From: Escherichia coli
Lineage (GTDB): Bacteria; Pseudomonadota; Gammaproteobacteria; Enterobacterales; Enterobacteriaceae
Assembly (NCBI RefSeq): GCF_036507355.1
Contig: NZ_AP027877.1
Length of the DNA: 64,000 nt
Reading direction: 5' to 3' (one strand)
Below are positions 24,001 through 27,000 of the stretch, piece after piece. Each line of letters begins with the position of its first letter. Position 1 is the stretch's first letter. Made by a program: the position numbers.

Positions 24001-27000
24001 CGATGAGATTTTCCCAAGCTTTTCAGTCAGCACCTGAATTTGTCTTGTGATTTTGGCTATTTCTGATGTTCCTTCCGGGGCGGAGTTGTTTGAAATAACG
24101 GTTGAGGTATTTCCCTGAATTGTGACAGACATAGATTTCTCCTTTTAAAAAAGCACTATCGGCATGCACAAAAAAATCTTTAATCGTATTTCTTGTGTCA
24201 TTAATTGTTTGATGTTCAGATTGTTTTCCTCGCGGGCTGGCGCGCCTCAGAAAGTAAAGCTTGTTGACAGGGGTAAACGTTCGGCAATAATTTTCTGCCG
24301 CATGCGGGTGTTGCATAAAACGTGTTACGTTCCTTTATCGACAGGTCAGGTCACCGCTCACCCGCCGACGAGAAAGCAACACTGACATGCTAAAGCAAAA
24401 AATAGATGAATAAGTTGAGTTGTGCATATGTAGCCTGACCGTCACAAAGTATATGGTGTCTGTACCAGTAAGATGATGGCCGGACTCTTTAAAAACGAGC
24501 TGACCTGCACAATACAGGATGGACTTAGCAATGGCTGCTCCTGGCACAAAGCGGACAGTGATCACCGTTCTTACGACTACTTTCTGACTTCCTTCGTGAC
24601 TTGCCCTAAGCATGTTGTAGTGCGATACTTGTAATGACATTTGTAATTACAAGAGGTGTAAGACATGGGTAGCATTAACCTGCGTATTGACGATGAACTT
24701 AAAGCGCGTTCTTACGCCGCGCTTGAAAAAATGGGTGTAACTCCTTCTGAAGCGCTTCGTCTCATGCTCGAGTATATCGCTGACAATGAACGCTTGCCGT
24801 TCAAACAGACACTCCTGAGTGATGAAGATGCTGAACTTGTGGAGATAGTGAAAGAACGGCTTCGTAATCCTAAGCCAGTACGTGTGACGCTGGATGAACT
24901 CTGATGGCGTATTTTCTGGATTTTGACGAGCGGGCACTAAAGGAATGGCGAAAGCTGGGCTCGACGGTACGTGAACAGTTGAAAAAGAAGCTGGTTGAAG
25001 TACTTGAGTCACCCCGGATTGAAGCAAACAAGCTCCGTGGTATGCCTGATTGTTACAAGATTAAGCTCCGGTCTTCAGGCTATCGCCTTGTATACCAGGT
25101 TATAGACGAGAAAGTTGTCGTTTTCGTGATTTCTGTTGGGAAAAGAGAACGCTCGGAAGTATATAGCGAGGCGGTCAAACGCATTCTCTGAACCAAAGCT
25201 TCGCACCGAAGGTGACACTTCTGCTTTGCGTTGACAGGAGAAGCAGGCTATGAAGCAGCAAAAGGCGATGTTAATCGCCCTGATCGTCATCTGTTTAACC
25301 GTCATAGTGACGGCACTGGTAACGAGGAAAGACCTCTGCGAGGTACGAATCCGAACCGGCCAGACGGAGGTCGCTGTCTTCACAGCTTACGAACCTGAGG
25401 AGTAAGAGACCCGGCGGGGGAGAAATCCCTCGCCACCTCTGATGTGGCAGGCATCCTCAACGCACCCGCACTTAACCCGCTTCGGCGGGTTTTTGTTTTT
25501 ATTTTCAACGCGTTTGAAGTTCTGGACGGTGCCGGAATAGAATCAAAAATACTTAAGTAGCGCGCAGGGATAAGAGGGATGGTCCCTTAAAGGGGAGAGC
25601 TAATTATCCGGAAGGATTCTGATGATGAACATCGAAGAACTGCGTAAAATTTTTTGTGAAGATGGCCTCTATGCTGTGTGCGTTGAAAATGGAAATCTTG
25701 TTAGTCATTACCGCATTATGTGTTTGCGAAAGAATGGGGCTGCGTTAATTAATTTTGTGGATGCTCGGGTCACGGACGGATTTATCTTGCGCGAAGGTGA
25801 GTTTGTCACTTCATTACAGGCATTGAAAGAGATCGGAATAAAAGCTGGCTTTTCTGCTTTTTCAGGAGAATAAACTCATCTACAATCTTGCGCGGGGCTG
25901 AACTCCCGCTGAGTAACACCGTGCCACCGGAGAAAACCGATGGCACGCAACGCAAAATATTACAATTCTGATAATTCGCCCGTTCTTGCCTGCACGCACG
26001 GGCGGTATTCTCACGCATTCAAGTCTGAATGGTTCCAGCACCCTCCATGCACTGCAGAACAGGCCGAATGGCTGATTCATTCTTACCGCAGGCGCGGGTT
26101 CGAGGTTAAGAAAGCTCTCAGTCTCGACTATCGGCACTGGATAATCTCTGTCAGGCTGCCTTATTCCGAACGCCCACCACGTGCGTCCCGCACTTTCCAG
26201 CAACGGATCTGGAGGTAACGTGCGGGTATTACTTAGACCTGTTCTGGTGCCTGAGCTTGGGCTGGTGGTCCTTAAGCCGGGCCGTGAATCCATACAGATA
26301 TTTCATAATCCTCGAGTGCTGGTGGAACCGGAACCAAAAAGCATGCGTAATCTGCCATCCGGAGTCGTTCCTGCCGTTCGCCAGCCGCTGGCGGAAGACA
26401 AAACATTGCTGCCGTTTTTTAGTAACGAACGGGTGATTCGTGCTGCTGGCGGCGTTGGCGCATTGTCCGACTGGCTATTACGTCATGTTACATCCTGCCA
26501 GTGGCCTAATGGCGATTACCATCACACTGAAACAGTCATTCACCGTTATGGTACCGGCGCAATGGTGTTGTGCTGGCACTGCGACAACCAACTGCGTGAC
26601 CAGACATCGGAATCACTGGAGCTGCTTGCTCAACAAAATCTGACAGCATGGGTGATTGACGTCATCCGTCACGCAATAAGCGGTACGCAGGAGCGGGAAT
26701 TATCTTTGGCTGAATTATCCTGGTGGGCGGTCTGCAATCAGGTGGTGGATGCACTACCTGAGGCTGTATCGCGTCGTTCGCTGGGATTACCAGCGGAAAA
26801 AATCTGCTCGGTGTACCGCGAAAGCGACATCGTACCGGGAGAGCAGACCGCCACCAGCATATTGAAACAACGCACAAAAAATCTTGCACCGTTGCCTTAC
26901 GCCCACCAGCAACAAAAATCACCACAGGAAAAGACGGTGGTAAGCATCACCGTTGATCCAGAGTCTCCGGAATCTTTCATGAAGCTGCCTAAACGTCGCC

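What the first reader, a model, noticed from the sequence alone, without database searches (positions are those of the whole stretch)
24620..25500. Two unrelated toxin-antitoxin systems side by side in the prophage
relBE (type II) and hokD (type I) sit within 900 bp, each with its own regulatory hairpins. This matches the known Qin arrangement and both coding sequences look intact, so they are candidates for stabilising the defective prophage.
Basis: established knowledge. Interest (0 to 1): 0.3.

Follow-up and report, generated by a model that had tools for sequence, protein, structure and literature searches.

The report
relBE operon with sok-less hokD
This is the well-known E. coli relB-relE-hokD operon of the Qin-type defective prophage: one complete toxin-antitoxin pair followed by a lone hok toxin gene that has lost its antisense antitoxin, here with a small private deletion between relE and hokD.

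Summary
relB is at 24665-24904, relE at 24904-25191 and hokD at 25250-25405. All three are 100% identical to E. coli K-12, and the local gene order matches Qin (flxA-ydfV-relB-relE-hokD-rem-ydfU).

They are not two autonomous toxin-antitoxin systems. relBE is complete: the relO operator is intact and the two genes overlap. hokD is only the 3' two-thirds of a hok/sok locus. Similarity to intact sister loci starts at the hok ribosome-binding site (25236). The roughly 175-nt leader is replaced by the relBE unit. That leader normally carries the hok promoter, tac/ucb, the Sok target, the mok start and the sok gene.

Rfam's sok model scores 87-115 bits on four intact control loci. It finds nothing in the window.

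In K-12, published northern blots show hokD (relF) transcribed as the third cistron from the relBE promoter.

One new detail: the window lacks 13 bp (ATGACATCTCTGT) of the relE-hokD spacer. This removes the start of a 15-codon upstream ORF. The deletion was found in none of 1,176 complete E. coli genomes with this junction and in no metagenome or viral contig.

Verdict: already known, low interest.

The parts
24543..25238 (+). Horizontally shared relBE unit of about 0.7 kb: promoter, relO, relB, relE and a 3' tail ending in ...GCGTTGACA(GG)
   Evidence: The same unit, at least 98.5% identical, has at least six different left flanks and several different right flanks. It occurs in Citrobacter, Klebsiella, Enterobacter, Kluyvera and metagenome contigs.
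24601..24629 (+). Probable relBE promoter: TTGCCC, 17 nt, GATACT, with a start site near 24637
   Evidence: Read from the sequence. The position fits the published statement that relO spans -10 to +17/+20 (PMC2812701). It scores 8 of 12 and so falls below the simple scan's threshold. This is an inference.
24629..24652 (.). relO operator: two adjacent 12-bp half-sites, TTGTAATGACAT and TTGTAATTACAA
   Evidence: Inverted and direct repeats found. The sequences are identical to the half-sites defined by mutagenesis and footprinting in PMC2812701.
24665..24904 (+). relB, the type II antitoxin and ribbon-helix-helix repressor (79 aa)
   Evidence: Pfam RelB 1e-32. NCBIfam equivalog NF008412, 133 bits. 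PDB 4FXE_A full length, 2.6e-46. Identical to K-12.
24904..25191 (+). relE, the ribosome-dependent mRNA endonuclease toxin (95 aa). Its start overlaps the relB stop (TGATG).
   Evidence: Pfam ParE_toxin 2e-13. TIGR02385. PDB 4V7K, 4FXE and 4V7J full length, about 1e-57. Identical to K-12.
25192..25249 (+). relE-hokD spacer, 58 nt here against 71 nt in K-12. The private 13-bp deletion lies between 25199 and 25200.
   Evidence: Alignment to K-12. None of the full-length matches in 1,176 genomes carries the deletion. The deleted junction gives 0 metagenome and 0 viral hits, while the wild-type junction gives 26 metagenome contigs. It is the only indel against strain NCTC9066 over 8.4 kb.
25227..25234 (+). 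Spacer element UGCGUUGA, a perfect complement of the fbi core. TGA at 25232-25234 is the stop of the K-12 15-codon upstream ORF.
   Evidence: Local folds give pair probabilities of 0.76-0.98. The helix is absent from the 861-nt fold. A complement of 8 nt or more arose in 79 of 20,000 shuffles. ORF frame and stop.
25236..25240 (+). hokD Shine-Dalgarno AGGAG, which is also the left limit of all similarity to intact hok/sok loci
   Evidence: blastn breakpoints and alignment A3.
25250..25405 (+). hokD (relF), a Hok-family membrane toxin of 51 aa with an intact coding sequence
   Evidence: Pfam HOK_GEF 1e-23. Same protein accession as K-12 and as the intact TA8571 locus, WP_000813254.1. The HokD coding sequence is toxic when overexpressed (bioRxiv 10.1101/2025.08.07.668861).
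25388..25391 (+). TACG motif at the Tyr47 codon, the TadA A-to-I editing site (Tyr to Cys)
   Evidence: Sequence. hokD mRNA editing is reported in PMC5630033 and PMC12214031 at about 6%.
25413..25434 (+). 3'UTR stem-loop: 9-bp stem, GAAA loop
   Evidence: Present in the minimum-energy and centroid folds. Conserved in intact loci.
25455..25467 (+). fbi (fold-back inhibition) element CCUCAACGCACCC. It is retained, but its normal partner tac is absent.
   Evidence: Aligned with the fbi of intact loci. In the intact TA8571 hok mRNA, tac (1-12) pairs with this element at P of about 1.0.
25474..25501 (+). Intrinsic terminator of the relB-relE-hokD transcript
   Evidence: It is the only + strand terminator-like site in 24300-25700.

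Best explanation
The locus is a three-gene relB-relE-hokD (relBEF) operon.

**relBE.** This is a complete type II toxin-antitoxin pair. RelB dimers, helped by RelE, bind the two relO half-sites and repress the promoter. When Lon degrades RelB, RelE is freed to cleave mRNA in the ribosomal A site, and the operon is derepressed.

**hokD.** This is the remnant of a prophage hokW/sokW-type type I locus. Everything upstream of the hok Shine-Dalgarno sequence is replaced by the relBE unit. hokD therefore has no sok antisense RNA, no Sok target, no full-length mok and no promoter of its own.
- It is transcribed only as the third cistron from the relBE promoter. This is shown by published northern blots in K-12 and inferred here from sequence identity.
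- Its toxin coding sequence is intact and potentially lethal.
- It probably stays largely untranslated, for three inferred reasons: tight RelB/RelE repression, loss of mok-coupled translation, and folding of its stable 3' part.
- It cannot give hok/sok-style post-segregational killing.

**The deletion.** A private 13-bp deletion removes the ATG of a 15-codon upstream ORF. In K-12 that ORF sits between the relE stop and the hokD ribosome-binding site. The deletion leaves all three genes and the hokD 3' structures untouched. If it does anything, it most likely lowers hokD translation further.
For: - Gene identities and 100% identity to K-12.
- relO intact: and PMC2812701.
- Leader absent: Rfam sok gives no hit in the window against 87-115 bits in four controls. 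Of the two control leaders, only the last 14 nt match anywhere in the 64-kb window.
- Breakpoint at 25236 against the intact TA8571 locus, which encodes the identical HokD followed by rem and ydfU.
- 4,017 of 5,426 E. coli genomes hold an intact HokD-type locus. 1,176 hold the relE-hokD junction.
- Between relE and hokD there is no promoter-like or terminator-like site on the + strand. A single terminator follows hokD.
- In K-12, relB, relE and relF probes detect one full-length transcript, and deleting the relBEF promoter abolishes induction (PMC3598666). PMC5120126 also lists the genes as co-transcribed.
- hokD is described as lacking canonical toxin-antitoxin components through genomic rearrangement (PMC12214031).
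- Deletion.
Against: - No expression data exist for this strain. Co-transcription and silence of hokD are carried over from K-12.
- Predicted exposure of the hokD ribosome-binding site is intermediate (P unpaired 0.3-0.5) and changes little after 3' truncation. Folding does not clearly show a translational block.
- The simple promoter scan misses the known sok promoter in an intact control locus. It therefore cannot exclude a weak new promoter.
- hokD mRNA is transcribed and edited in K-12, and the relF part accumulates after toxin-induced cleavage. Some function is therefore not excluded.
Confidence: 0.85

Rival explanations
1. One reading: two independent, complete toxin-antitoxin systems, relBE (type II) and hokD/mokD/sokD (type I). 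Each would have its own regulation, and both would stabilise the prophage.
For: Both toxin coding sequences are intact. NCBI's pipeline labels hokD a 'type I toxin-antitoxin system toxin'. The 3' hok structures (fbi, terminator) are present.
Against: The sok/mok leader is absent by covariance model with positive controls, by blastn and by alignment to intact sister loci. The Sok target region is also missing, so even a Sok made elsewhere in the genome would have nothing to pair with.
Confidence: 0.03
2. relB-relE-(short ORF)-hok is a functional composite module, not a wreck. In this view RelB/RelE autoregulation replaces Sok as the control on hok. Translation passes from relE through the 15-codon ORF to hokD by termination and reinitiation. 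A tac-like spacer element pairs with fbi to lock the mRNA until 3' processing. The 13-bp deletion in this window would then be a natural uncoupling mutation.
For: - The relE+spacer unit is joined at the identical point to at least six different Hok alleles.
- 451 plasmids carry at least 80% of a relB-relE-hok module.
- The spacer/fbi complement of 8 nt has a chance frequency of about 0.004 and is predicted to pair in local folds of most variants.
- The short ORF starts 9 nt after the relE stop, is in frame with hokD and ends 15 nt before its ATG. That geometry resembles mok, whose ATG lies at -56 to -58 in intact loci.
- The relF part of the mRNA accumulates (PMC3598666).
Against: - All copies of the unit are at least 98.5% identical, so conservation carries no selective signal.
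- The spacer/fbi helix vanishes in the fold of the full 861-nt mRNA.
- Similarity of the spacer to mok regions is not significant.
- The same unit also occurs without any hok (L005, L010) or next to an inverted hok leader (L009).
- RelE activity would itself suppress HokD synthesis.
Confidence: 0.12
3. The 13-bp deletion is an assembly or sequencing artefact, and the locus is simply wild-type K-12-like relBEF.
For: The deletion is absent from every other sequence examined.
Against: A clean 13-bp loss in non-repetitive sequence is not a typical sequencing error. The surrounding 8.4 kb differs from strain NCTC9066 by only 5 mismatches. This suggests a good-quality assembly.
Confidence: 0.1

Closest known systems
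E. coli K-12 relBEF operon (relB-relE-hokD/relF) in the Qin cryptic prophage
   Same: Same gene order, flxA-ydfV-relB-relE-hokD-rem-ydfU. The three coding sequences, relO, the hokD 3'UTR and the terminator are identical.
   Different: The relE-hokD spacer is 58 nt instead of 71 nt because of the private 13-bp deletion. The left arm of the prophage differs: two IS3-family elements are present, and there is no Rfam DicF hit and no similarity to K-12 left of 23587.
Intact prophage hok/sok loci of the HokD/HokW type (hokW-sokW of Sakai prophage Sp5, PMC8621323; E. coli TA8571 locus L040/L041)
   Same: The Hok protein is identical in TA8571. It is 45/51 identical in the O145 locus, which matches both published hokW primers. 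The ribosome-binding site, coding sequence, 3'UTR with fbi, terminator and position just upstream of rem-ydfU-Q are all shared.
   Different: Those loci keep the roughly 175-nt leader (Rfam sok 115 bits). It carries the hok promoter, tac, the Sok target, the mok ATG at -57 and the sok gene. In the window all of this is replaced by the relBE unit.
hok/sok (parB) of plasmid R1
   Same: Same Hok/Gef toxin family (Pfam PF01848; 45% identity by tblastn). Same 3' fold-back logic.
   Different: R1 has sok, mok, tac/ucb and its own promoter, and it mediates post-segregational killing. The window has none of these upstream parts.
Plasmid-borne relB-relE-hok modules (for example C. freundii pRHB16-C09_3, K. 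michiganensis DSM 25444 plasmid)
   Same: relBE, relO and the spacer are at least 98.8% identical and joined to hok at the same nucleotide. These modules also lack a sok leader.
   Different: The hok allele is R1-like rather than HokD-type. The spacer is the full 71 nt.

Membership tests
Type II toxin-antitoxin system relBE (RelB/DinJ antitoxin with RelE/ParE-superfamily toxin) | Antitoxin gene directly upstream of, and overlapping, the toxin gene | tested here: met
   The relB stop and relE start overlap (TGATG) at 24902-24906.
Type II toxin-antitoxin system relBE (RelB/DinJ antitoxin with RelE/ParE-superfamily toxin) | RelB ribbon-helix-helix antitoxin and RelE toxin domains | tested here: met
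   Pfam and NCBIfam scores are above their cut-offs. Full-length matches to PDB 4FXE, 4V7J and 4V7K.
Type II toxin-antitoxin system relBE (RelB/DinJ antitoxin with RelE/ParE-superfamily toxin) | Autoregulatory operator (relO, four hexad repeats) in the promoter | tested here: met
   TTGTAATGACAT and TTGTAATTACAA at 24629-24652, identical to the half-sites in PMC2812701.
Type II toxin-antitoxin system relBE (RelB/DinJ antitoxin with RelE/ParE-superfamily toxin) | Labile antitoxin (Lon) and ribosome-dependent mRNA cleavage by the toxin | not testable with these tools
   Known for the identical K-12 proteins (PMC2812701). Inferred here from sequence identity.
[quoted passage not shown] | Hok/Gef-family toxin ORF | tested here: met
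   PF01848 1e-23. Identical to K-12 HokD.
[quoted passage not shown] | cis-encoded sok antisense RNA gene and its target in the mRNA leader | tested here: not met
   RF01794 gives no hit at E<=10 in 23000-27000 and none in the whole window. Controls score 87-115 bits. No leader similarity anywhere in the window beyond the last 14 nt.
[quoted passage not shown] | mok upstream reading frame with its own ribosome-binding site, coupling hok translation | tested here: not met
   Intact relatives have a mok ATG 56-58 nt upstream of hok. The window has no ATG or GTG there. The hokD frame is closed by TGA at 25232-25234. The K-12 15-codon ORF has lost its ATG.
[quoted passage not shown] | 5' tac/ucb elements and the locus's own hok promoter | tested here: not met
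   Similarity to intact loci starts at 25236. The hok promoter detected in intact L040 (176-203) has no counterpart here.
[quoted passage not shown] | 3' fbi element and terminal stem-loops | tested here: met
   CCUCAACGCACCC at 25455-25467, the stem-loop and the terminator are identical or nearly identical to those of intact loci.
Qin-type lambdoid cryptic prophage arrangement | Gene order flxA-ydfV-relB-relE-hokD-rem-ydfU-Q antiterminator-cspF/cspB | tested here: met
   K-12 annotation and 99.1% identity over 23587-28620. The left arm (dicA, dicB, dicF) is not present.

The most novel reading that the evidence does not exclude
relB-relE-(15-codon ORF)-hok may be a mobile composite module. 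In it, a Sok-less Hok toxin has been placed under the control of a protein antitoxin/repressor. Translation would be relayed from relE, and a tac-like spacer element would pair with fbi. The 13-bp deletion in this window would be a natural mutant that breaks the relay.
Probability: 0.12. Interest if true: 0.5.

Novelty: already known. Interest (0 to 1): 0.18.

Why it matters
Mostly this is a correction. Annotation pipelines and readers label hokD a 'type I toxin-antitoxin system', but in the relBEF context it is a toxin gene without an antitoxin. Counting it as a second addiction module overstates the prophage's stabilisation machinery.

Two smaller points could interest toxin-antitoxin specialists.
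- Intact sister loci encoding the identical HokD sit at the same prophage position in other strains. This gives an exact before/after view of the rearrangement, with the breakpoint at the hok ribosome-binding site.
- The same 0.7-kb relBE unit is joined at the same nucleotide to several different hok alleles on hundreds of plasmids.

The private 13-bp deletion offers a natural test of whether the short ORF between relE and hokD matters.

Tried and rejected
- **Is the spacer a diverged mok region?** Local alignment against seven mok regions with shuffle controls gave p between about 0.05 and 0.95. The idea is not supported, and only the geometry is suggestive.
- **Is the spacer end a tac remnant that locks the mRNA?** An 8-nt complement to fbi is unusual (79 of 20,000 shuffles) and pairs in local folds. 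It is absent from the fold of the whole 861-nt mRNA, and the R1-like variants use other registers. I kept this only as a minority reading.
- **Does folding hide the hokD ribosome-binding site?** The result is ambiguous: P unpaired is 0.31-0.48 and shifts little with 3' truncation.
- **Is there a second hok, or a sok acting in trans, in the window?** None was found (Rfam on the whole window).
- **Does the deletion exist elsewhere?** It gave 0 hits in complete E. coli genomes, plasmids, metagenome contigs and viral contigs. The scan of species-representative genomes used a spacer pattern and did not recover the window's source.
- **Weak Rfam hits.** The isrK hit at 25414-25495 (25 bits against a gathering score of 50) also appears in the intact locus L040. 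It reflects the generic hairpin-plus-terminator shape, so I rejected it.
- **Promoter scan as evidence against a sok promoter.** I rejected this as evidence, because the scan misses the sok promoter in an intact control.
- **Original papers.** Gerdes 1986 and the Fozo 2008 review were not held in the paper library.

Full report
**Observation**

The window carries three + strand genes between 24665 and 25405: relB (24665-24904, 79 aa), relE (24904-25191, 95 aa) and hokD (25250-25405, 51 aa).
- Pfam assigns them to RelB (1e-32), ParE_toxin (2e-13) and HOK_GEF (1e-23). NCBIfam agrees.
- RelE and RelB match the solved E. coli proteins over their full length: 4FXE, 4V7J, 4V7K and 2K29.
- The neighbours are flxA, ydfV, rem and ydfU, as in K-12 Qin.
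- Over 23587-28620 the window differs from K-12 by five SNPs, a 25-bp tandem duplication (23672-23721) and one 13-bp deletion. None of these touches a coding sequence of the three genes.

**relBE is a complete type II system**

- The relB stop overlaps the relE start.
- The two 12-bp relO half-sites defined experimentally (TTGTAATGACAT and TTGTAATTACAA) lie at 24629-24652 (PMC2812701).
- A plausible promoter (TTGCCC, 17 nt, GATACT) sits just upstream. This is my reading of the sequence, and it fits the paper's placement of relO at -10 to +17/+20.

**hokD is not a complete type I system**

- Rfam family RF01794 models the hok mRNA leader from +1 to the hok AUG. This is the region that contains tac, ucb, the Sok target, the mok start and, on the other strand, sok.
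- It scores 114.9 bits on a phage-plasmid HokD-like locus (L002), 87.2 on an R1-type hok/sok locus (L004), 115.3 on a chromosomal locus in E. coli TA8571 (L040) and 94.7 on an inverted leader in Citrobacter (L009).
- In the window it gives no hit even at E<=10 over 23000-27000, and none at gathering threshold over all 64 kb.
- blastn-short with two control leaders finds only their last 14 nt (25236-25249) anywhere in the window. tblastn finds only one hok gene.

**The breakpoint**

E. coli TA8571 has a Qin-like prophage in which the identical HokD protein (WP_000813254.1) is followed by rem, ydfU and a Q antiterminator, and is preceded by a full leader.
- blastn of that region against the window matches only from window 25236 to 27269. 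Alignment A3 shows the same.
- Position 25236 is the A of the hokD Shine-Dalgarno AGGAG.
- Everything upstream is relE plus a spacer in the window and in K-12. In TA8571 it is the hok promoter (picked up by the simple scan at L040 176-203), tac, the Sok target and a mok ATG at -57.
- The O145:H28 locus L039 matches both published hokW primers. This intact family is therefore the experimentally characterised hokW-sokW type (PMC8621323).
- Intact HokD-type loci are the common state, in 4,017 of 5,426 complete E. coli genomes. The relE-hokD junction is present in 1,176.
- The literature agrees. hokD is described as lacking canonical components because of genomic rearrangement (PMC12214031, citing Pedersen and Gerdes 1999).

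**How it most likely works**

Between relE and hokD there is no promoter-like or terminator-like site on the + strand. A single intrinsic terminator follows hokD at 25474-25491.

In K-12:
- relB, relE and relF (hokD) probes detect the same full-length transcript.
- Deleting the relBEF promoter abolishes induction.
- The relF part accumulates after toxin-induced cleavage (PMC3598666; also PMC5120126).

Because the window is identical to K-12 here, I infer the same operon. hokD transcription is set by RelB/RelE at relO.

Without Sok, a Sok target or mok, hok/sok-type post-segregational killing is not possible. A Sok made by another locus would also have nothing to pair with.

The toxin itself is intact, and the HokD coding sequence is toxic on overexpression (bioRxiv 10.1101/2025.08.07.668861). 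Its Tyr47 codon sits in a TACG motif (25388-25391), which TadA edits to Cys at a low level in K-12 (PMC5630033, PMC12214031).

That HokD is normally not made is an inference. Fold predictions give only intermediate exposure of the ribosome-binding site.

**The 13-bp deletion**

K-12 reads ...AACCAAAGC ATGACATCTCTGT TTCGCACC.... The window lacks the middle 13 bp, between 25199 and 25200.
- All full-length matches in 1,176 E. coli genomes carry the 13 bp.
- The deleted junction has 0 hits in metagenome and viral contigs. The wild-type junction has 26 metagenome hits.
- It is the only indel against strain NCTC9066 over 8.4 kb.

In K-12 the deleted bases include the ATG of a 15-codon ORF (MTSLFRTEGDTSALR). 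This ORF starts 9 nt after the relE stop, is in frame with hokD, and ends at a TGA (window 25232-25234) 15 nt before the hokD ATG. Whether it is translated is unknown. The deletion does not change the predicted core fold of the hokD mRNA.

**Side findings on the relBE unit**

- A unit of about 0.7 kb (window ~24543-25238) recurs at 98.5% identity or more, with different flanks, in Citrobacter, Klebsiella, Enterobacter and Kluyvera sequences.
- Its right end...GCGTTGACA(GG), is followed by HokD-type hok, by several R1-like hok alleles joined at the same nucleotide, by an inverted hok leader, by an IS end, or by unrelated DNA.
- 451 plasmids carry at least 80% of a relB-relE-hok module.
- The spacer contains UGCGUUGA (25227-25234), a perfect complement of the fbi core (25457-25464). 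A complement this long is rare in shuffles (79 of 20,000) and pairs in local folds, but not in the fold of the whole 861-nt mRNA.
- Similarity of the spacer to mok regions is not significant.

These points keep open a minority reading in which relBE-hok is a functional composite module.

**Verdict**

'Two toxin-antitoxin systems side by side' should instead read 'one type II system plus an orphan, leaderless hok toxin gene in the same operon'. This is the already described K-12 relBEF arrangement. The only new detail is a private 13-bp spacer deletion of uncertain consequence.

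Noticed in passing
window 24543-25238; loci L003, L005, L008-L010, L012, L025: The relBE promoter-operator, both genes and a 3' tail of about 45 nt form a 0.7-kb unit. 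It is at least 98.5% identical across several genera, with at least six different left flanks and a fixed right end, ...GCGTTGACA(GG).
   Followed up: partly
loci L003, L008, L013, L023, L028, L036 and window 25236: The same relE+spacer is joined at the identical nucleotide (TTGACAGG|AGAAG) to at least six different Hok alleles, both HokD-type and R1-like. 451 plasmids carry at least 80% of a relB-relE-hok module. None of the examples scanned has a sok leader.
   Followed up: partly
L009 8764-8929 (Citrobacter portucalensis): Directly after the relE spacer lies a complete hok leader/sok region in inverted orientation (Rfam sok 94.7 bits on the minus strand). It is joined at the hok ATG, and no hok coding sequence follows.
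   Followed up: no
L043 (K. pneumoniae IncF plasmid) 690-900: An R1-like hok is preceded only by the last ~35 nt of the relE-hok spacer. It has no relE and no sok leader, and it sits next to a divergent DUF1778/GNAT toxin-antitoxin pair. This is another apparently Sok-less hok.
   Followed up: no
window 24335-24640 (- strand, ydfV): The ydfV ORF spans the left end of the mobile relBE unit (~24543). Its first ~33 codons lie inside the unit and the rest in Qin-specific DNA. It has no Pfam hit. It may be a chimeric or spurious ORF.
   Followed up: no
window 19427-20691 and 22369-23587: Two IS3-family elements (transposase ORFs at 19471-20289, 22387-23199 and 23256-23540) interrupt the left arm of the prophage relative to strain NCTC9066. 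The K-12 dicA-dicC-dicF-dicB region is absent: Rfam finds no DicF, and similarity to K-12 ends at 23587.
   Followed up: partly
window 23672-23721: A perfect 25-bp tandem duplication (TCTTGTAATGTTAACTATCAGAAAT x2) downstream of flxA (- strand gene), on its low-coordinate side. K-12 has one copy. NCTC9066 shows no gap here, so it appears to share the duplication.
   Followed up: partly
window 25514-25543: A promoter-like site (TTGAAG, 18 nt, TAGAAT) lies just downstream of the hokD terminator and upstream of rem. The same site is present in the intact TA8571 locus.
   Followed up: no
window 28809-29201, 31711-32096, 36073-36271, 48446-48658: Rfam gathering-level hits elsewhere in the window: two cspA-type thermoregulator leaders (prophage cold-shock genes), IS009 and the Hfq-binding sRNA STnc560.
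   Followed up: no
intact hok loci L002, L004, L037-L040: The upstream mok ATG lies 56, 57 or 58 nt before the hok ATG in different intact loci. mok is therefore in frame with hok in some loci and out of frame in others.
   Followed up: no
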